The notes beneath the pieces were generated by a model. That model was not told the DNA's origin, ran no database searches, and worked only from the letters and a program-made list of their open reading frames with translations. Source: a virus (lineage: Duplodnaviria; Heunggongvirae; Uroviricota; Caudoviricetes). From it: 37,430 nt of DNA. Position numbers and translations under genes: made by a program. Where the stretch lies: the IMG/VR virus record IMGVR_UViG_2585427768_000010; one strand, written 5' to 3'. Below, one piece after another: positions 1 through 7,850 of the stretch. Numbering within the stretch: the stretch's first letter is position 1; each line of letters opens with the position of its first letter.

Positions 1-1002
1 TTACCCTCTATTGTCAAAAGGGTTCAATTCAACAGCAGCCTCTAAATGACCTGGAGCAAAATGCGCATAACGCATAGTCATTTTTATATCGCTATGCCCC
101 AGTATTTTTTGCAACACAAGAATATTTCCGCCCCGCATCATAAAATGACTGGCAAACGTGTGACGTAGCACATGAGTTAATTGCCCATCAGGAAGCTCGA
201 TCTTCGCTCTCTTAATTGCAGCGTCAAAAGCCTCATAACATGGTGAAAATAGCGCTCCTCGTTTTTTAGGAAGCATAGCCTGCAATTGAGGTGAAATCGG
301 TACAGTGCGGTTCTTCTTTCCTTTAGTTTTAACAAATGTGATTCGACCGGGCAGTACTTGAGATTGCTTTAATCCTTCTGCTTCACTCCACCGAGCACCC
401 GTCGCAAGCCCAATACGGACAACAACCCCCAAATCTTTATTCCGTGACTCATCACACGCAATCAGAAGGCGTTCAATCTCATCTACATACAGAAACGCCA
501 GTTCCTTTTCTTCCTCACGAAACTTGCGAATACCAGTCAGGGGGTTTTCACCAGACCACTCCCCAAGGCGCTTCAGTTCGGCAAAAACAGCATGTAGATA
601 TGACTGCTCGCGATTAACGGTTGCTTCACTAAGTTTTTTCTTCCCCTTGGGATTCCATTCTCCTGATAGCCTTCTTTCCCGATAAGTAGCAAACATATTT
701 TTGTCAAACTGAGAAGCAAATGGATCTCCCAGCCTGGAACAAATCGCCTCAAGTTTGACTTTGCGCTCTGCACCAGAGGACAAGGTTTTACCGTACATCT
801 CAAACCAACGAGCAATCAACTCAGAAAGACGAGGACCAGAACCATCTTGAAACTCGTCTCCAACTCTACTATTCATTAAACGGCGCTCATAAGAGAGCGC
901 CTCACTTTTTGTCGCAAACTGTTTACGAATGCGTTTTCCCGATGCCCCGTAGGGATAACATTCGCAAAGCCATTTACCTGATGGAATCTTACGAACCGAC
1001 AT
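1..1002 (-). CDS. int: Tyrosine integrase, P2 Int-like (333 aa)
   Basis: Translation shares P2 Int blocks GKRIRKQF, TGARWSEA, VTFVKTKGKKNRTVPIS, HVLRHTFASHFMMRGG, LQKILGH, RYAHFAP; stop codon sits at window positions 1-3. Confidence 0.9.
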   Translation of the reverse strand: MSVRKIPSGKWLCECYPYGASGKRIRKQFATKSEALSYERRLMNSRVGDEFQDGSGPRLSELIARWFEMYGKTLSSGAERKVKLEAICSRLGDPFASQFDKNMFATYRERRLSGEWNPKGKKKLSEATVNREQSYLHAVFAELKRLGEWSGENPLTGIRKFREEEKELAFLYVDEIERLLIACDESRNKDLGVVVRIGLATGARWSEAEGLKQSQVLPGRITFVKTKGKKNRTVPISPQLQAMLPKKRGALFSPCYEAFDAAIKRAKIELPDGQLTHVLRHTFASHFMMRGGNILVLQKILGHSDIKMTMRYAHFAPGHLEAAVELNPFDNRG

Positions 1003-1007
1003 TTTAG

Positions 1008-1355
1008 TTACTTATCACATAAATCAAATGCAGCCTTAGTGACATCCCCCAGACTCTTTTTTAACCCTGGGGCGGCATCATTATCTAGCCAAAATGGATT
1101 ATTGTTATCTAACGGTAACGCACCAAATGTTTTACCTTTTATTCGAGCCAAACCTGTAAGTGCATATAACTTATTATCGTCAAAATTCATCACATAAGGA
1201 TTACCATCAAGACACTGTAATTGAACCTCATCAGTATTAAATGGCCATACCCCATTGAAACTCTCACGTTCAATAGTTTTAAAAGGCATTGCGACGGCGG
1301 AAAAAGAAAACATAGATAAAAAAGTAACTAATAGTTGAACCTTTTTTACTTTCAT
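1008..1355 (-). CDS. Secreted protein resembling the YebY/DUF2511 periplasmic family (115 aa, signal peptide)
   Basis: N-terminal signal peptide MKVKKVQLLVTFLSMFSFSAVA; remembered YebY-like pattern W.FN..EV.L.C..GN.YV.N, DNNNPF, final LC; GAGGT Shine-Dalgarno upstream; co-oriented with repressor and int. Confidence 0.55.
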   Translation of the reverse strand: MKVKKVQLLVTFLSMFSFSAVAMPFKTIERESFNGVWPFNTDEVQLQCLDGNPYVMNFDDNKLYALTGLARIKGKTFGALPLDNNNPFWLDNDAAPGLKKSLGDVTKAAFDLCDK

Positions 1356-1384
1356 ATCATTACCTCAATTTAGCTCAAGTAAGA

Positions 1385-2035
1385 TTACAAATTAAAAAAT
1401 GCCCTAGAAATGACACCACCTACCAAAACCCCTACGCAGATAAAGAATATTATTTCTTTTGGATAAAGTCGGATTAATTCTGAAGCACGAAGTCGGACTT
1501 CTGGTAAGGTCGAACTCTCTGTGTGGCTTGATGCCGATTGTTGCTCTAACCACGACAATGCAGACTGTAACTGAGAACGAGTAAGATCGTTTAAACGTCC
1601 TGTACCGAAATTGATATGGCAATACCGCAGAAGTTTTTGTCGAAGTCCACAGTCTTCACTGTTACGTAGTAATAAACTTACAAGAGCCTTACAGGCATCA
1701 TGATCTTTACATCGCTCAAGCATTGCATGCAGAAAACTCTCCGCTGTTTTATATTGATTTACTGTCATATCATCAATACCAGTTACACCAATCTCCGCAT
1801 GTACTTTTTGCCAAATAATAAACGCTTCAGTATTGCTAGCTTCTGCAATAGCAGCAACCAAGCTATTTAGCTCCTTACGCTGAGCCTTAAGCAAAGGGCG
1901 ATCGTCATCATCATTATTCGAAGGGATTGCGATATTGACGGTCTGAGAACCATCATATCGCTCTATCTGAATATTCTTTTCGTGAAAATCACGCCCAGCA
2001 ACGCGATTGTTTGAACCGTTTGAGTTGACGGCCAT
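1385..2035 (-). CDS. Hypothetical protein with C-terminal hydrophobic anchor (216 aa)
   Basis: ORF with GGGAGGTG Shine-Dalgarno; C-terminal hydrophobic segment IIFFICVGVLVGGVISRAFF; N-terminal NNRVAGRDFHE motif also found at the C-terminus of the upstream repressor. Confidence 0.55.
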   Translation of the reverse strand: MAVNSNGSNNRVAGRDFHEKNIQIERYDGSQTVNIAIPSNNDDDDRPLLKAQRKELNSLVAAIAEASNTEAFIIWQKVHAEIGVTGIDDMTVNQYKTAESFLHAMLERCKDHDACKALVSLLLRNSEDCGLRQKLLRYCHINFGTGRLNDLTRSQLQSALSWLEQQSASSHTESSTLPEVRLRASELIRLYPKEIIFFICVGVLVGGVISRAFFNL

Positions 2036-2050
2036 GTCACCTCCCTACTA

Positions 2051-2455
2051 TCACCTACCCTTAGTTTCGTTATAGTCACGACCAGCGATACGGTTATTAC
2101 CACCAGAAATATTTAACTCACGTCCTGATGGCTGAGTTTCCTTTTCACTGATCGCACCTTTTAAAGCCCCAATCACCGCATTTTTCACATCTAACGAAGC
2201 TGCTCGAAAGCGAGTAATCAACTCCTGCTCATCATCGTTATAAGTTTCAGGTGAGTGAATTCCCAACACAACATACTGAACATCAAGGCCAAAACGAGAC
2301 AGCGCTGCCAAATACGCAGCATCAGGAAAGCTATCTCCTTTCTCATATCTAAGCTGAGTTAGCTTTTTGACTCCACCAATGTCGCTCATGGCAACTTGAC
2401 TAAGTCCCAATCTTTCCCTTTCCTCACGCAACCGCTGACCAATATCATTTTTCAT
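2051..2455 (-). CDS. XRE-family helix-turn-helix immunity repressor (C/CI analogue, 134 aa)
   Basis: N-terminal HTH (QRLREERERLGLSQVAMSDIGGVKKLTQLRYEKG); positioned divergently from the early operon and upstream of int as in P2 C. Confidence 0.7.
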   Translation of the reverse strand: MKNDIGQRLREERERLGLSQVAMSDIGGVKKLTQLRYEKGDSFPDAAYLAALSRFGLDVQYVVLGIHSPETYNDDEQELITRFRAASLDVKNAVIGALKGAISEKETQPSGRELNISGGNNRIAGRDYNETKGR

Positions 2456-2464
2456 ACAAAAACC

Positions 2465-2494
2465 TTGACAGGTATCTTTTTTGATACCAAAATG
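2465..2494 (+). promoter_or_regulatory. Candidate early promoter with embedded operator palindrome
   Basis: TTGACA at 2465-2470 followed directly by perfect inverted repeat GGTATC-N6-GATACC (2471-2488) in the repressor/early-operon divergent intergenic region. Confidence 0.35.
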
Positions 2495-2530
2495 ATTTCA
2501 CGAGCTATTAGATGATCACAATATACCACT

Positions 2531-2737
2531 ATGAAACAAGTTCTTCACGATACCAGATCACGCATTCCGCGTAACACCGCCACAGGTCCAAGACTGGCAC
2601 TTCGGCTGTCCCTCGAGGAGCGAGCCGTCATTGATGAAATGGCAGCTAAAGAACAACGCTCATCCTCTAACATGGCGCGCATGATCTTCCTTCGCGGCCT
2701 AGAGCTAACCCAGAAAGAACAAAACAAATCTTCCTGA
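2531..2737 (+). CDS. Small putative ribbon-helix-helix-like regulator (68 aa), first gene of early operon
   Basis: ORF; segment RLSLEERAVIDEMAAKEQRSSSNMARMIFLRGLE resembles RHH DNA-binding proteins; function inferred only. Confidence 0.4.
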   Translation: MKQVLHDTRSRIPRNTATGPRLALRLSLEERAVIDEMAAKEQRSSSNMARMIFLRGLELTQKEQNKSS

Positions 2738-2753
2738 TCAGGAGGCTAGTGGG

Positions 2754-2957
2754 ATGTCAGGTATAACCATCAATATCAATGTGAATGCCCCCTATGTATC
2801 CCTGCAGAAATATGCAGAGATAACAGGTATCCCTCTTAATACATGCAAAAAGATGTTGGCTGACGGTCGAATTATTATCCGACCCAAACGCGCCAAAATG
2901 GAAAAGCCTGAAGTAAACCTTGTGGCGATGTTAAAAGACGCTTTGGCTAACAGCTAA
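2754..2957 (+). CDS. Cox/Apl/AlpA-like small HTH protein (67 aa), putative excision/transcription regulator
   Basis: GGAGG Shine-Dalgarno; HTH-like YAEITGIPLNTCKKMLADGRI similar in pattern to P2 Cox (FAKLIGKSTGAVRRMIDKGKLPVI). Confidence 0.45.
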   Translation: MSGITININVNAPYVSLQKYAEITGIPLNTCKKMLADGRIIIRPKRAKMEKPEVNLVAMLKDALANS

Positions 2958-2978
2958 AACAATGAACAGAGCACCATC

Positions 2979-3329
2979 ATGAAAAAAAACGCTAATAATC
3001 CATACTCCAAATTTCGTAATGGCGTAGAACGCCATGTACACCACGTCGCTACCAGTGCATCACGTAGTAACAGTCGCTATAACCTGAACGAGACGCACGC
3101 AACACCGGATGGCCACGCTGTAAAACAAATCGGCGAGCATGCCTGGCTGATTGAGAAAGCTGGAATCGTGGTCCACAAATGCCCACGCAATCCGTTTACC
3201 GGAAACCGCATTTTTGCATTGAACTGCGGCGACAATCACTTCGGGCAGGATTTCACATTATACGAAGCACTTCGCACGGTTGATCGTCTGCTTCGCGGGC
3301 AAAGTTTTATTAAACAGGCTGATTTATAA
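2979..3329 (+). CDS. Hypothetical early protein (116 aa)
   Basis: ORF in early operon, co-oriented and tightly spaced. Confidence 0.5.
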   Translation: MKKNANNPYSKFRNGVERHVHHVATSASRSNSRYNLNETHATPDGHAVKQIGEHAWLIEKAGIVVHKCPRNPFTGNRIFALNCGDNHFGQDFTLYEALRTVDRLLRGQSFIKQADL

Positions 3330-3339
3330 CAGGTGCTTT

Positions 3340-3618
3340 ATGACCAAAGAGCATGCACAAGGTGTATTTATCCGTTTTATTGATTTTCGCGGTGAACTGT
3401 TATTACGCGCATCAGCCATTGACGGAGTTGTTCCATCCGAAAAAAACGCAGCTACTTACGTTTATCTGAACGGTACGCGCCTGACTGTGGAGCTTCCGTA
3501 CCAGACCGTACGAGAAATCATTAGCGAAGCTGAAAAGGCACGTCAGGTTAATGGCGATGAACCCTATATCGAAATTATTTGTATGGATTCAGAAGCTGAA
3601 ATTCAGAAAGCAGATTAA
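3340..3618 (+). CDS. Hypothetical early protein (92 aa from ATG 3340)
   Basis: ORF; the internal ATG at 3340 avoids overlap with the upstream gene. Confidence 0.45.
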   Translation: MTKEHAQGVFIRFIDFRGELLLRASAIDGVVPSEKNAATYVYLNGTRLTVELPYQTVREIISEAEKARQVNGDEPYIEIICMDSEAEIQKAD

Positions 3619-5027: not shown

Positions 5028-7850
5028 ATGACGGCAGAGTACATCAGGGACTGGCAACAACCGCGCCACGCAGTGGGGCGTGAAGGAACGGGGATCCCCG
5101 CTCCTGAATCCGCGCTTTCCTCCTGGCTGGATGCCTACCGGGCAGAGAACGAGCGCCGCCAGGAAATGGCTGATGCGGCGTTCTCCGCCACGCCGCTGGG
5201 CAACCTGATTAATAAAAGCCTAGACGCACAGGAAAAACAGGACAAAACAATCACACTGGCAGGAGACGCCAGAAAACAGGCACGCGGCGCGGTAGATGAG
5301 GCCATGGCCTCACTGCGCCTGCTGCCGTCCTATCTGCGCGATCCGCTTATTCGCCACCTCTCCTTCCTGCGCAAAAAACAGGAAGCCGATCGTCAGCAAG
5401 GAAAAAACGCCAGGCAGGCAGAACGCTATGCGCGTGGGACCCTGCGCAAAATATTCGAACGTCTGGAGCGCACCGATCACCGCTGGCTGACATCGGGTTA
5501 TCGCTCCCTTGCCGGACGTGAACGCCTGGACGATTTGATTTCCCTGCCGCAACTCAACAAACACCAGATACAGACGCTGGCCACCATGACGGCGGCGATG
5601 TTCAGCAGCACCTTCGAAAAACTCTGCGATGGTTTTGGCGCGACTGATGGCGAGCTGACCATGGATGTAACGCTGAAGGCGTATCAGATGCTGGCCCGCA
5701 TGGCGTTACACTTACACGCCATGCCTCCGCATTATGACGCACTGACAACAGACAAAGACCGGAGGCACGAACCGGACACAGAACTGCTGCCGGGCGCAAT
5801 CCTTCGCCTGACCTGTGCGGAATGGTGGAAACGCAAACTGTGGCTGTTACGTTGCGAGTGGAGAGAAGAACAACTCCGCGCCGCCTGTCTAGTTTCCAGA
5901 AAAACATCGCCCTATCTGAGCCAGGACGCGTTAAGCGAGTTTCGCGCACAGCGCGAGAAAACACGCGATTTCCTGAAAAGTTTCATGCTGGAAAATGAAG
6001 ACGGGTTCACGATTGATCTCGAGACGGTGTATTACGCGGGAGTAAGTAACCCGGTTCACCGTAAGGCAGAAATGATGGCCACCATGAAGGGGCTGGAACT
6101 TCTGGCCGAAGCCCGTGGCGACAAAGCGGTGTTTCTGACTGTCACCTGCCCGTCAAAATACCACGCCACAACGGAGAACGGTCATCCGAATCCCAAATGG
6201 AACGGGGCCACAATGCGCGACTCCAGCGATTACCTGGTTAACACGTTTTTTGCGGCGGTCCGCAAAAAACTGAACCGCGACGACCTGCGCTGGTATGGCA
6301 TCCGCACGGTGGAGCCTCATCATGACGGCACCGTGCACTGGCATATGATGGTCTTTGCACATCCGGAAGAAATCGACACCATTGTGTCCCATACCCGCGA
6401 TATTGCCATTCAGGAAGACCGCCACGAGCTGGGCAATGATATTACTCCGCGCTTTAAGGTGGAGTATGTCGACGGCTCAAAAGGCACGCCAACCAGCTAC
6501 ATCGCCACCTACATCGGAAAGAACCTGGACAGCCGCGCCGTGGATGGCATCGACCCGAAAACGGACAAGCCACGCGTGGACCACGAAACCGGAAAATCAA
6601 TGGCCGAGAGCGTGGAACGCGCCATCGGCTGGGCGCGTCTTCACCGCGTCCGCCAGTTCCAGTTCTTTGGTATCCCCTCCCGTCAGGTATGGCGTGAACT
6701 CCGCCGCCTTGCCAGTCAGATGGCCCGCAACCCGGAAGGTCCACAACGTCTGGAAAATGACGCAATGGATGCGGTACTCGCTGCCGCTGATGCCGGGTGT
6801 TTTGCCACCTACATTGAGAAACAGGGTGGCGTACTTGTTCCACGCAAAGACTACCTGATTCGCACCGCCTACGACCTCGCAGAAGAGCTGAACGATTACG
6901 GCGAGCAAAGCGTACAGATTTACGGGATCTGGTCGCCACAAATCGGGGAATCTTCCCGCGTGTGCACGCACCCGGATAACTGGAAGCTGGTAAGACGTAA
7001 ACCGGAAGCGGAAGACAGCGCCCGCGAAAATGGTTTTGACCTTCAGGGCGGCCCTGCCGCCCCTTGGACTCGTGGCAATAACTGTCCCCGTGTACAGGAA
7101 ACGGACAACAACGGGACAGAACAGCCGGAAGAACGGCCAGCACCGTGGCCGCAGCTCCCTGACGGCGTTGAAGTGAACGAATGGATGCGCTCACTGAAAC
7201 GGCACGAACGCCGGGCGCTGATGCGTTCGCTTCGTGACAAACAGGCAAAAAACAGCAGTGATGAAATGCAGAGCTGGACACAGAGCCGCAAACAGCAGCG
7301 GCCTTTGCCTGATAACCACGAATTACTCGCTAAAGAATGGCGGGAGTCTGCTGAATCTCTCGGCCTGCATATCGGTGAACAGCAGATGCAGCACCTGTTA
7401 CGGGGCGGCAGTCTGTACGTTGACGGCAGCATCATTGCACCGCAGGGATTTGAAATTGTACGCAAACCGGATACCCGACCGGACAGCCGGATCACGCAGC
7501 TCTGGCAGCGCCTGAGCCGTAACCACGGCGTAAGCAGCACGGAGATCCGCCATAACCCGGTCGCCAGCTATCTGGAACAGCTGGGGGCATCAGACCCCGA
7601 AGCCGCCGCACGCCTGGCATCCACACTTCAGCAAGACCAGAACACCATGAAAACACCCGTTACCGTGCTTTCTGACATGCTGCGCGCCATCCGCGACGCA
7701 GAGCACGCACAGAGAATCAGTGAAACCACTGAACGCGCCCGCCGCAAAGCAGACCTGCTGCGAGGTGGCCTGACCAGTGGAAACAAAAAACAGACAGAAA
7801 CGGGATTCACAAATCCCGTAAATGAGCAAAAAACGCGCCGCGATATATGA
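5028..7850 (+). CDS. A: Replication initiation protein A (rolling-circle endonuclease, 940 aa)
   Basis: HxH metal motif (VHWHMMVFAHPEE) and tandem-tyrosine rolling-circle motif (SYIATYIGKN) as in P2 gpA; position after early operon. Confidence 0.85.
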   Translation: MTAEYIRDWQQPRHAVGREGTGIPAPESALSSWLDAYRAENERRQEMADAAFSATPLGNLINKSLDAQEKQDKTITLAGDARKQARGAVDEAMASLRLLPSYLRDPLIRHLSFLRKKQEADRQQGKNARQAERYARGTLRKIFERLERTDHRWLTSGYRSLAGRERLDDLISLPQLNKHQIQTLATMTAAMFSSTFEKLCDGFGATDGELTMDVTLKAYQMLARMALHLHAMPPHYDALTTDKDRRHEPDTELLPGAILRLTCAEWWKRKLWLLRCEWREEQLRAACLVSRKTSPYLSQDALSEFRAQREKTRDFLKSFMLENEDGFTIDLETVYYAGVSNPVHRKAEMMATMKGLELLAEARGDKAVFLTVTCPSKYHATTENGHPNPKWNGATMRDSSDYLVNTFFAAVRKKLNRDDLRWYGIRTVEPHHDGTVHWHMMVFAHPEEIDTIVSHTRDIAIQEDRHELGNDITPRFKVEYVDGSKGTPTSYIATYIGKNLDSRAVDGIDPKTDKPRVDHETGKSMAESVERAIGWARLHRVRQFQFFGIPSRQVWRELRRLASQMARNPEGPQRLENDAMDAVLAAADAGCFATYIEKQGGVLVPRKDYLIRTAYDLAEELNDYGEQSVQIYGIWSPQIGESSRVCTHPDNWKLVRRKPEAEDSARENGFDLQGGPAAPWTRGNNCPRVQETDNNGTEQPEERPAPWPQLPDGVEVNEWMRSLKRHERRALMRSLRDKQAKNSSDEMQSWTQSRKQQRPLPDNHELLAKEWRESAESLGLHIGEQQMQHLLRGGSLYVDGSIIAPQGFEIVRKPDTRPDSRITQLWQRLSRNHGVSSTEIRHNPVASYLEQLGASDPEAAARLASTLQQDQNTMKTPVTVLSDMLRAIRDAEHAQRISETTERARRKADLLRGGLTSGNKKQTETGFTNPVNEQKTRRDI

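What the first reader, a model, noticed from the sequence alone, without database searches (positions are those of the whole stretch)
1985..2104. Shared NNR(I/V)AGRD(Y/F) motif at the repressor C-terminus and the next gene's N-terminus
The repressor ends ...ISGGNNRIAGRDYNETKGR and the adjacent 216-aa protein begins MAVNSNGSNNRVAGRDFHEKN. The underlying DNA is roughly 70% similar by eye, so this looks like an old partial duplication across the gene boundary. The motif could be a shared protease or partner recognition tag linking repressor and cargo protein, or simply a recombination scar.
Basis: seen in the sequence. Interest (0 to 1): 0.45.

Follow-up and report, generated by a model that had tools for sequence, protein, structure and literature searches.

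The report
Matched tag linking repressor and membrane protein
A prophage repressor and the membrane protein encoded just after it carry the same short peptide tag at their facing ends; the tag differs between phage lineages but matches within each pair, which points to a physical link between the lysogeny switch and the cell membrane.

Summary
The repressor (2051-2455, minus strand) ends LNISGGNNRIAGRDYNE. The 216-aa protein that starts 15 nt downstream begins VNSNGSNNRVAGRDFHE. That is 10/17 identical residues, 25/34 nt, and no better score in 5000 shuffles.

It is not a scar. All 120 listed homologues of the 216-aa protein keep the tag, as do 51 of 117 near-full-length repressor relatives. 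More distant repressors in Mu-like prophages carry different tails, and the next gene's N-terminus carries that same variant. These include phages B3 (ORF18/ORF20) and BcepMu (gp17/gp18). Across 23 non-redundant pairs, cognate score is 50.3 against 28.9 for non-cognate (z 8.5, 0/100000 permutations). Synonymous codons are randomised (42% identical, 45% expected), so the match is held at protein level.

The tag is about 18 residues, rich in N, G, V and Q, almost free of L, and modelled at low AlphaFold2 confidence on both proteins. The partner is always membrane-anchored but belongs to varied families; here it has a Flk_N domain.

My best reading, which is inferred, is a tag that pairs with its own kind and couples repressor to membrane partner. 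This gene layout resembles amyloid-signalling pairs (HET-S/NWD2, Bab/Agp), but the flanking domains differ. I found no published description.

The parts
2051..2455 (-). XRE-type helix-turn-helix repressor, 134 aa. It sits in the CI/C position, divergent from the Arc-like/Cox-like early operon.
   Evidence: ORF. PHROG 8/4/3 transcriptional regulator or repressor, E 2.5e-14 to 3e-6. Pfam HTH_31/HTH_3 hits fall below the gathering scores. AlphaFold2 gives HTH helices at 5-64 and helices at 74-106 with pLDDT 84-95. The homologue in phage 520873 is annotated as a transcriptional regulator next to an Arc-like repressor and a Cox-like excisionase.
2066..2116 (-). Repressor copy of the tag: L114-E130, LNISGGNNRIAGRDYNE.
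   Evidence: Local alignment. It lies in the low-confidence tail (residues 108-134, pLDDT about 43). It is conserved as INVSGxGNR[VI]AGRD[YF]NE in 51 of 117 near-full-length relatives.
2054..2065 (-). Short basic end after the tag (TKGR). Relatives usually end in K/R-rich stretches such as NKK, KKNK or GKKRK.
   Evidence: The mean is 2.7 K/R in the last 8 residues across 23 non-redundant repressors.
2036..2053 (-). Gene junction: three consecutive in-frame stops (TGA TAG TAG), then the Shine-Dalgarno sequence GGAGGT, three bases (GAC) and the ATG.
   Evidence: Read directly from the sequence. No terminator-like site was found between 900 and 2800.
1385..2035 (-). ORF216, a tail-anchored membrane protein: N-terminal tag, Flk_N helical domain, C-terminal transmembrane helix.
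   Evidence: ORF. phrog_5825, E 6e-103. NCBIfam Flk, E 1e-15, far below the equivalog cut-off. Homologues carry PF27202, which is Flk_N. AlphaFold2 mean pLDDT is 86. RefSeq calls it 'membrane protein'.
1979..2029 (-). ORF216 copy of the tag: V3-E19, VNSNGSNNRVAGRDFHE.
   Evidence: All 120 listed homologues have N[RK]x[ASG]x[RQCN]D within the first 30 residues. AlphaFold2 pLDDT is 52-61 for residues 1-40.
1517..1900 (-). Flk_N helical bundle of ORF216, about residues 46-173.
1391..1462 (-). C-terminal transmembrane anchor of ORF216, about residues 192-215.
   Evidence: Hydrophobic end EIIFFICVGVLVGGVISRAFFNL. AlphaFold2 helix 192-215.
1978..2011 (.). DNA repeat copy 1 (34 nt), under the ORF216 tag.
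   Evidence: the repeat finder family D1.
2065..2098 (.). DNA repeat copy 2 (34 nt, 74% identical, 87 nt from copy 1), under the repressor tag.
   Evidence: the repeat finder family D1; alignment.

Best explanation
The two copies are a matched interaction tag that is maintained at protein level. The tag is about 18 residues, is rich in N, G, V and Q, and is modelled at low confidence in the monomer. One copy sits at the C-terminal end of the prophage's CI-type XRE repressor. The other sits at the cytoplasmic N-terminal end of the tail-anchored membrane protein that is translated next, probably from the same transcript. I infer that the tag pairs with its own kind by beta-strand stacking, the kind of contact that rewards sequence identity. 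That would let the membrane protein capture or co-assemble with the repressor tail and couple the lysogeny switch to the inner membrane. The most likely role is a membrane-anchored, signal-gated modulator (anti-repressor or tether) of a repressor that has no LexA-type self-cleavage domain.

Shown here: the tag exists; it is conserved; it is present or absent concordantly; it co-varies between lineages; it is held by selection on the protein; it lies in low-confidence termini; and the partner is always membrane-anchored.

Inferred: direct tag-to-tag binding, the direction of regulation, and the biological output.
For: 1. Conservation. The tag is in 120/120 listed ORF216 homologues and in 51/117 repressor relatives across Escherichia, Klebsiella, Salmonella, Yersinia, Serratia and Pectobacterium.

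2. The gene pair recurs in unrelated phage backbones. It appears in the P2-like window and in Mu/BcepMu-like prophages with rve transposase, MuB-like AAA proteins and holin/SLT genes. It also appears in phages B3 and BcepMu.

3. Lineage-specific tags match within pairs. Examples are QIFNGDISGQFAGNQIIN with QEFNGTAQGQFSSRDIIN; QQINGPISGGVAGRDFV with KQEINGDVEGGIAGRDIV; KQVFKGSVSGVAGRDVVK with KQTFKGPVGDVAGNDVVK; and B3 ISVTGDGNRTAGRDFHE with IEVTGSNNIVAGRDFIE. For 23 non-redundant pairs the cognate mean is 50.3 and the non-cognate mean 28.9 (z 8.5, 0/100000 permutations).

4. Presence and absence are concordant: 23/4/4/23, Fisher p 3e-7, with each side judged only from non-cognate comparisons.

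5. In 22 of 23 loci, the best match to the repressor tail among all ORFs in the locus is the N-terminus of the gene immediately downstream.

6. Identical residues use the same codon no more often than codon usage predicts (99/234 observed, 105.8 expected, z -1.0). The match is therefore selected at protein level and is not due to gene conversion.

7. The tag lies in low-confidence termini next to confident folds.

8. The partner's middle domain varies (Flk_N or no known family), but the N-terminal tag recurs, and most partners show a predicted membrane anchor. This points to tag-to-tag contact and membrane location as the constant features.

9. The positions most often identical between partners are F, G, Q, R, V and N.
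Against: No binding was tested or modelled.

The two tag-coding segments lie within about 100 bp of each other, so they are always inherited together. Part of the lineage-level co-variation could therefore come from linkage plus separate purifying selection on each copy.

Within the single xR-x-AGRD class, fine-scale co-variation is only marginal (223 identical positions against 214.8 +/- 4.0, 516/20000 permutations).

No fused repressor-Flk_N protein was seen among the 93 Flk_N-like cluster representatives.

The tag contains charged residues (R, R, D, E), which would stack like on like in a strictly in-register sheet.

The identification as the immunity repressor rests on gene position and homology, not on experiment.
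Confidence: 0.5

Rival explanations
1. Common third partner, with one protein acting as decoy or competitor. Both tags bind the same site on another protein, either phage-encoded (such as an anti-repressor) or host-encoded. The membrane protein then competes with the repressor for that factor or delivers it. The tags match because they fit one pocket, not because they touch each other.
For: Conservation of both copies and protein-level selection fit this equally well. Mimicry of a repressor segment is a known anti-repressor logic (my own knowledge). ORF216's Flk_N bundle weakly resembles the Red-beta C-terminal domain, which PDB entry 8tfu shows bound to an SSB C-terminal peptide, so it might bind peptides.
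Against: The tag differs strongly between lineages, so the third factor would have to co-vary as well. The only constant neighbours are the repressor core, which is highly conserved, and a partner whose domain varies. No third ORF in 22/23 loci resembles the tag, although a receptor need not resemble it. A conserved host factor would predict one conserved tag, not many classes.
Confidence: 0.2
2. Independent self-assembly modules. Each protein uses its copy only to oligomerise with itself: repressor cooperativity on one side, clustering of the membrane protein on the other. The copies descend from one duplication and do not interact.
For: Small HTH repressors need an oligomerisation element. 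A tail after the helical domain sits where some relatives carry what looks like a LexA/S24-type C-terminal domain (L054, L057, judged by eye). A self-pairing tag would self-associate by definition.
Against: Two modules that evolve independently should drift apart. Instead, cognate copies remain closer to each other than to the equivalent copies in other lineages. A tag that pairs with itself would also cross-pair with an identical-class tag made from the same mRNA, so non-interaction would need special insulation.
Confidence: 0.12
3. Shared degradation tag. Both termini are degrons for one protease (ClpXP, Lon or FtsH), giving the two proteins a coordinated turnover.
For: Degradation of the Mu repressor by ClpXP depends on its C-terminal end (my own knowledge). 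Both tags are terminal and modelled at low confidence.
Against: Host proteases are conserved, yet the tag varies widely between lineages of related hosts. The same sequence would have to work at an N-terminus and, in the repressor, at an internal position followed by a basic extension. Nothing explains why the two must match pair by pair.
Confidence: 0.07
4. Neutral remnant. The repeat is a recombination or duplication scar with no function, or a chance resemblance between low-complexity ends.
For: The repeat is short and its DNA identity is modest.
Against: The score is never reached in 5000 shuffles. Conservation is 120/120 in the partner family. Matching persists with randomised synonymous sites. 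Presence/absence and co-variation are concordant in distant phages.
Confidence: 0.03

Closest known systems
Amyloid-signalling motif pairs: fungal HET-S/NWD2, bacterial BASS1-10 in Bell/NLR pairs, and Bab/Agp (BASS11) in an E. coli prophage defence island
   Same: Adjacent collinear genes with a tiny gap or an overlap. The short motif sits at the C-terminus of the first product and the N-terminus of the second. The motif differs between families but matches within a pair. Composition is enriched in N, G, Q and V and depleted in L (compared with the description in the Dyrka et al. preprint). The monomer is modelled at low confidence. A prophage location has a precedent in Bab/Agp (bioRxiv 10.1101/2024.11.07.622273).
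   Different: Neither partner is an NLR/STAND or TPR-GreA/B-C-PIN sensor, and neither is a Bell/HeLo, TIR or CHAT effector. Here the C-terminal copy is on a DNA-binding repressor and the N-terminal copy is on a membrane-anchored protein. The motif is shorter (median 18 residues against about 25). No second pseudo-repeat is present (1/23 loci). Fibril formation is untested.
Lambda cI-rexA-rexB and similar immunity operons, in which the repressor is co-transcribed with a membrane protein
   Same: A lysogenic operon in which the repressor gene is followed by a membrane-protein gene expressed in the lysogen (established knowledge for lambda). The gene order is the same here. In the beetrevirus Fc02, repc and the downstream accessory gene e4 are co-transcribed in the lysogen (PMC9936078), although Fc02 did not turn up among the phages that share the B3 module.
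   Different: To my knowledge, lambda CI and the Rex proteins share no terminal motif. ORF216 is not related to RexB (no such hits).
Anti-repressors that inactivate non-cleavable repressors by binding or aggregation (CTXphi RstC acting on RstR, 186 Tum, P22 Ant, Gifsy anti-repressors)
   Same: They provide a route to switch off a repressor that lacks an S24 self-cleavage domain. RstC causes RstR to aggregate (my own knowledge). NCBIfam gives a weak RstR-family hit for this repressor (E 4e-6, far below the cut-off).
   Different: Known anti-repressors are soluble, are usually under separate (often LexA) control, and do not copy a segment of their target. Here the candidate is membrane-anchored, lies in the repressor's own operon, and carries the repressor's own tail sequence.
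Membrane sequestration of transcription factors (RseA with sigma-E, PtsG with Mlc)
   Same: The concept is the same: a membrane protein holds a soluble regulator at the inner membrane and releases or captures it on a signal. Some partners (BcepMu gp18 and the Aeromonas and Jeongeupia homologues) have a small conserved two-cysteine domain after the transmembrane helix, presumably periplasmic.
   Different: Those systems use dedicated heterologous interfaces, not a duplicated self-matching peptide. No homology to them was found.
Flk (Fluke/RflH), the flagellar secretion-switch regulator of Salmonella
   Same: ORF216 shares the Flk_N helical domain and the C-terminal membrane anchor. [quoted passage not shown]
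   Different: Chromosomal Flk proteins are about 330 aa, begin MQP..SGPG and lack the tag. The NCBIfam score of 57.9 is far below the Flk equivalog cut-off of 353. The prophage context also differs.

Membership tests
Amyloid-signalling motif pair (FASS/BASS type) | Adjacent, collinear genes; short motif at the C-terminus of one product and the N-terminus of the other | tested here: met
   The gap is 15 nt in the window. In the 23 motif-class pairs it ranges from -50 to +32 nt. In 22/23 loci the best match to the tail is the N-terminus of the downstream gene.
Amyloid-signalling motif pair (FASS/BASS type) | Motif of about 20-25 residues, enriched in G/N/Q/V/I and depleted in K/P/L | tested here: met
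   N 3.6x, G 2.4x, V 1.9x, Q 1.5x; L 0.09x, K 0.74x, P 0.77x; I is not enriched (0.95x). Median length is 18, somewhat short. The criteria are taken from the Dyrka et al. preprint.
Amyloid-signalling motif pair (FASS/BASS type) | The N-terminal copy is on an oligomerising sensor (NB-ARC/NACHT NLR, or TPR-GreA/B-C-PIN) | tested here: not met
   The N-terminal copy is on a 216-aa Flk_N tail-anchored protein, or on other small membrane proteins. No NTPase or TPR domains were found.
Amyloid-signalling motif pair (FASS/BASS type) | The C-terminal copy is on a cell-death or immune effector (HeLo/Bell, TIR, CHAT and similar) | tested here: not met
   The C-terminal copy is on an XRE helix-turn-helix repressor.
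Amyloid-signalling motif pair (FASS/BASS type) | The motif forms cross-beta fibrils or propagates as a prion, and the sensor copy templates the effector copy | not testable with these tools
   This needs peptide fibrillation assays, ThT/Congo red binding, solid-state NMR or in-cell foci.
CI/C-type XRE prophage repressor | Helix-turn-helix domain of the XRE/Cro-CI type | tested here: met
   PHROG 8, 4 and 3 (E 2.5e-14 to 3e-6). AlphaFold2 gives a five-helix HTH with pLDDT 93-95. Pfam HTH_31, HTH_19 and HTH_3 hits fall below their gathering scores (23.2 vs 27, 20.0 vs 30.2, 19.1 vs 23).
CI/C-type XRE prophage repressor | Located next to the integrase and divergent from the early lytic operon (Cox/Apl/Ner side) | tested here: met
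   The order is int, DUF2511, ORF216 and repressor on the minus strand, followed by Arc-like, Cox-like and DUF4761 genes on the plus strand. The arrangement relative to the ner-like/transposase operon is the same in Mu-like loci.
CI/C-type XRE prophage repressor | Shown to repress the lytic promoter or to confer immunity | not testable with these tools
I found no experimental data for this phage.
LexA/lambda-CI type self-cleaving repressor | C-terminal S24 peptidase domain | tested here: not met
   The protein is 134 aa with no Peptidase_S24 hit. After the HTH there are only two helices and a low-confidence tail. Some distant relatives (L054, L057; 221 aa) have a longer C-terminal domain in its place that looks LexA/S24-like by eye; I did not scan it against a profile.
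Flk (flagellar regulator) orthologue | Score above the NCBIfam equivalog cut-off; about 330 aa; chromosomal flagellar context | tested here: not met
   57.9 bits against a cut-off of 353. The protein is 216 aa and lies in a prophage. True Flk sequences lack the N-terminal tag.
Flk_N domain protein (PF27202) | Contains the Flk_N domain | tested here: met
   Precomputed PF27202 hits on nearly all homologues. The domain is named Flk_N. The local Pfam copy lacks this model. The NCBIfam Flk alignment covers residues 35-166.
Type II toxin-antitoxin pair (HTH antitoxin plus toxin) | Recognisable antitoxin and toxin families | tested here: not met
   There are only weak MqsA and HipB-type HTH hits, far below their cut-offs. 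PADLOC found nothing for ORF216 and only weak HTH-level hits (RmrA, control protein) for the repressor.

The most novel reading that the evidence does not exclude
The tag is a functional amyloid or prion-like templating motif that controls a lysogeny switch. When the membrane protein clusters, in response to an envelope or infection signal, its N-terminal tags nucleate a cross-beta assembly. That assembly recruits and converts the matching repressor tails, which either removes the repressor from its operators (SOS-independent prophage induction) or, in the reverse direction, activates the membrane protein when the repressor state changes. This would extend amyloid signalling from NLR/effector immune pairs to phage repressors, including those of phages B3 and BcepMu and a prophage module found in about 10% of complete E. 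coli genomes.
Probability: 0.2. Interest if true: 0.9.

Novelty: new variant of a known kind. Interest (0 to 1): 0.72.

Why it matters
Many temperate phages of the P2 and Mu types have small repressors with no self-cleavage domain. How such repressors are inactivated, or connected to the state of the cell, is often unknown.

A self-matching tag shared with a co-expressed membrane protein would be a concrete physical link between the lysogeny switch and the inner membrane. Simple experiments can test it: tag swaps, proline substitutions, localisation and two-hybrid assays.

The link occurs in cultivable model phages (B3, BcepMu) and in a prophage module carried by 520 of 5426 complete E. coli genomes. 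The lineage-specific but pair-matched sequences also suggest a second specificity code, beside operator recognition, that could keep co-resident prophages from interfering with each other.

If the tag works by cross-beta templating, it would be the first case I know of in which amyloid-type signalling acts on a transcription factor that decides a virus's life cycle.

Tried and rejected
1. A HET-s-like second pseudo-repeat in the partner. I searched the 45 residues after the first copy; only 1 of 23 loci reached p<0.05. Rejected as a general feature.

2. Fused 'all-in-one' repressor-Flk_N proteins, which would be Rosetta-stone evidence for a complex. None was seen among the 93 Flk_N-like cluster representatives. 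This is a negative result of limited reach.

3. Modelling the complex by submitting both genes as one chain.

4. Recent gene conversion or duplication. Rejected: identical codons are at the level expected from codon usage.

5. Stop-codon read-through or a recoding fusion. The two ORFs are in the same frame, but they are separated by TGA TAG TAG, and the gaps and overlaps vary between lineages. Rejected.

6. Fine-scale co-variation inside the xR-x-AGRD class. It is only marginal (p about 0.03), so I do not use it as strong evidence.

8. LexA boxes in the window, as a sign of an SOS-controlled anti-repressor. Matches are no more frequent than chance (14 against 11.9 +/- 3.7). Uninformative.

9. 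Using the Fc02 transcriptome as direct evidence. Fc02 did not turn up in either the repressor search or the B3-module search, so it serves only as an analogy.

10. Defence-system libraries. PADLOC found nothing for ORF216 or the DUF2511 protein.

11. Literature searches for a prior description found none.
Full report
**Setting.** The window is a P2-type prophage of the genus Xuanwuvirus. Its first 3.4 kb are 97% identical to Escherichia phage 520873. The 1.2-kb segment studied here is present in 520 of 5426 complete E. coli genomes, mostly at 99% identity or more, next to yecA.

On the minus strand the genes are:
- an integrase (1-1002);
- a secreted DUF2511 protein (1008-1355);
- a 216-aa protein (1385-2035);
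- a 134-aa helix-turn-helix protein (2051-2455).

The plus strand then carries an Arc-like gene, a Cox-like gene and the early operon. By position and homology the 134-aa protein is the immunity repressor; this is an inference, with no experiment behind it. Public records call the two genes only 'helix-turn-helix domain-containing protein' and 'membrane protein'.

- The repressor ends ...LNISGGNNRIAGRDYNETKGR and the next protein begins MAVNSNGSNNRVAGRDFHE.
- The best local alignment (L114-E130 against V3-E19) has 10/17 identities and scores 62. None of 5000 shuffles exceeded 51 (Gumbel p about 3e-5).
- The DNA repeat is 34 nt, 74% identical and 87 nt apart, so the copies are in frame.
- No other real ORF in the 37-kb window carries the motif.
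- The junction reads TGA TAG TAG GGAGGT GAC ATG. That is three stops followed by a strong ribosome-binding site, so read-through fusion is not expected. No terminator-like site follows.

**It is conserved, not a scar.** All 120 listed homologues of the 216-aa protein, from many genera of Enterobacterales, start with M-x-VNS-x-G-x-x-NR-x-[AS]GRD[FY]-x-E. Of 117 near-full-length repressor relatives, 51 end with INVSG-x-GNR[VI]AGRD[YF]NE followed by lysines.

**The key result is matched variation.** More distant repressor relatives keep the HTH core (RLREERERLGLSQ...) and a helix (DE-x-EL-x-x-FR-x-APLAVKAA) but have other tails. I looked up their genomic places and scanned one genome per species and the IMG/VR viral contigs with the repressor alignment. 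The pair recurs in Mu/BcepMu-like prophages of Gamma- and Betaproteobacteria, and the next gene's N-terminus carries the same variant as the repressor tail:
- Pectobacterium: QIFNGDISGQFAGNQIIN with QEFNGTAQGQFSSRDIIN.
- A Rhodocyclaceae genome: QQINGPISGGVAGRDFV with KQEINGDVEGGIAGRDIV.
- Locus L025: KQVFKGSVSGVAGRDVVK with KQTFKGPVGDVAGNDVVK.
- Jeongeupia: GNAQIGQASAGDIVN with GGAQIDQAAAGDINN.
- Phage B3 ORF18/ORF20: ISVTGDGNRTAGRDFHE with IEVTGSNNIVAGRDFIE.
- Phage BcepMu gp17/gp18: QEQVFHGSVGQA with KQEFNKPVGQA.

**Statistics for the matching.**
- Among 54 non-redundant pairs, motif-like tails and motif-like downstream N-termini occur together (23/4/4/23, Fisher p 3e-7). Each side was classified only from non-cognate comparisons.
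- Within the 23 motif-class pairs, cognate scores average 50.3 against 28.9 for non-cognate combinations (z 8.5, 0 of 100000 permutations). The mean rank of the cognate is 3.2, where 12 is expected. A first set of 16 pairs gave z 6.8.
- In 22 of 23 loci, the best match to the repressor tail among every ORF of 60 aa or more on both strands is the N-terminus of the gene immediately downstream.

**The match is held at protein level.** In cognate alignments, identical residues use the same codon in 99 of 234 cases. Codon usage of the same genes predicts 105.8 (z -1.0). Nucleotide identity over the motif averages about 59%. In the window itself, five of the seven identical residues in NNR-x-AGRD use different synonymous codons. 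Recent duplication or gene conversion is therefore excluded, and selection keeps the two peptides alike.

**Anatomy.**
- AlphaFold2 models the repressor as a confident HTH (residues 5-64) plus two helices (74-106) and a low-confidence tail (108-134, pLDDT about 43).
- The 216-aa protein has a low-confidence N-terminus (pLDDT 52-61 for residues 1-40). Next come a very confident helical bundle (helices from residue 50 to 173, pLDDT 94-98) and a terminal transmembrane helix (192-215).
- Partners in other lineages often have no Flk_N domain and no Pfam family at all. They keep the N-terminal tag, and most show one or two predicted transmembrane segments. Some also have a small conserved two-cysteine domain after the membrane helix.
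- The constant features are therefore the repressor core, the matched tag, and membrane anchoring of the partner.

**Nature of the tag.**
- Median length is 18 residues.
- Enriched residues are N 3.6-fold, G 2.4-fold, V 1.9-fold and Q 1.5-fold; L is almost absent at 0.09-fold.
- F, G, Q, R, V and N are the residues most often identical between partners.
- The repressor copy is followed by a basic end.
- This composition, the terminal placement, the adjacent collinear genes with minimal spacing, and the pair-wise matching are the operational criteria used to discover amyloid-signalling motifs in fungi and bacteria (Dyrka et al. preprint). An E. coli prophage-borne pair, Bab/Agp, has been shown to signal through such a motif (bioRxiv 10.1101/2024.11.07.622273).
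- The resemblance stops at the flanking domains. There is no NLR-type sensor and no Bell/HeLo/TIR effector here. The motif is shorter, and a second pseudo-repeat is not a general feature. I therefore do not file the pair as a BASS family member.

**Mechanism.** Sequence matching that is maintained while both copies change between lineages is what a contact that rewards identity would produce. In-register beta stacking, whether a small zipper or a cross-beta assembly, is such a contact. My best explanation (confidence 0.5) is that the two tags pair directly on the cytoplasmic face of the membrane. The membrane protein would then tether, sequester or co-assemble with the repressor.
- The repressor has no self-cleavage domain, whereas a few distant relatives carry what looks by eye like a LexA/S24-type domain in place of the helix-plus-tail (not scanned). 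This suggests the tail is the regulatory handle of the repressor.
- The direction of control and the signal are not known. Either the membrane protein regulates the repressor, or the repressor regulates a membrane effector.

The rival explanations are:
- a co-evolving third partner that binds both tags (0.2);
- independent self-assembly modules (0.12);
- a shared protease tag (0.07);
- a neutral scar (0.03).

**Caveats.**
- No interaction was modelled or measured.
- The two coding segments are tightly linked, so linkage contributes to co-inheritance.
- Fine-scale co-variation inside one motif class is marginal.
- No fused architectures were found.

**Novelty.** Seven full-text searches and targeted reading found no description of a shared terminal motif between a phage repressor and its downstream membrane protein. 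The library is incomplete, so this absence is not proof. I rate the finding as a new variant of a known kind: matched-terminus gene pairs in a new functional context, the lysogeny switch.

Noticed in passing
window 2444-2496: A 19-nt inverted repeat (ATCATTTTTCATACAAAAA / TTTTTGATACCAAAATGAT, 74% complementary, 15 nt between the arms) spans the repressor start codon. It also spans a plus-strand promoter-like site (TTGACA-17-CAAAAT, 2465-2493) that faces the early operon. It is a candidate operator and early promoter.
   Followed up: no
window 1008-1355 (minus strand): A 115-aa secreted DUF2511 protein (phrog_2950) sits between the membrane-protein gene and the integrase, with no terminator-like site before it. 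It looks like a moron on the lysogenic transcript. It is not part of the pair in other lineages.
   Followed up: partly
window 2036-2053: The repressor and ORF216 are in the same reading frame, separated by three consecutive stop codons (TGA TAG TAG), which is an unusually emphatic termination.
   Followed up: partly
L171 (BcepMu gp18), L026, L018, L019: Partners in BcepMu, Jeongeupia and Aeromonas share a small domain after the transmembrane helix, C-x-[FY]-x-G-[KE]-x-[YF]-x-x-G-[ST]...C-V. It is presumably periplasmic and could be a sensor.
   Followed up: partly
L054, L057 (Halomonas, Vreelandella): Relatives of the same HTH core are 221 aa and end in a sequence that looks like a LexA/S24 peptidase domain (...DVEILGRCEIRIGRVV) where this family has the helix plus tag. 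I judged this by eye and did not scan it.
   Followed up: no
L040, L048-L053, L055, L060-L087 (Pseudomonas chromosomes): Many Pseudomonas genomes have a chromosomal relative of the HTH protein with a different, tag-free C-terminus (...AALWHLLGRL...). It lies just upstream of a response-regulator gene whose product begins MIRVLVVDDHDLVRTGITRMLADIDGLQVVGEA. These loci served as tag-free controls.
   Followed up: no
L089 (NC_049344, phage 520873), locus positions 1001-3447: In the reference phage record the integrase is annotated as two fragments. The ORF216 homologue is unannotated and matches only in three pieces (93% identity), which suggests frameshifts or sequencing errors in that record.
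   Followed up: no
[not shown]
   Followed up: partly
protein hits P0283, P0284, P0306, P0313, P0333: A subgroup of Flk_N membrane proteins has an extra N-terminal helix (DERLAKLAELLKDE...) before a G/N-rich stretch (VKGAGNTINVGGTQVNL). Their upstream neighbours were not examined.
   Followed up: no
window 5028-7850: A 940-aa ORF in the early operon is presumably the replication protein, and the only perfect LexA-box-like match in the window (7082-7097) lies inside it. Such matches are no more frequent than chance.
   Followed up: no
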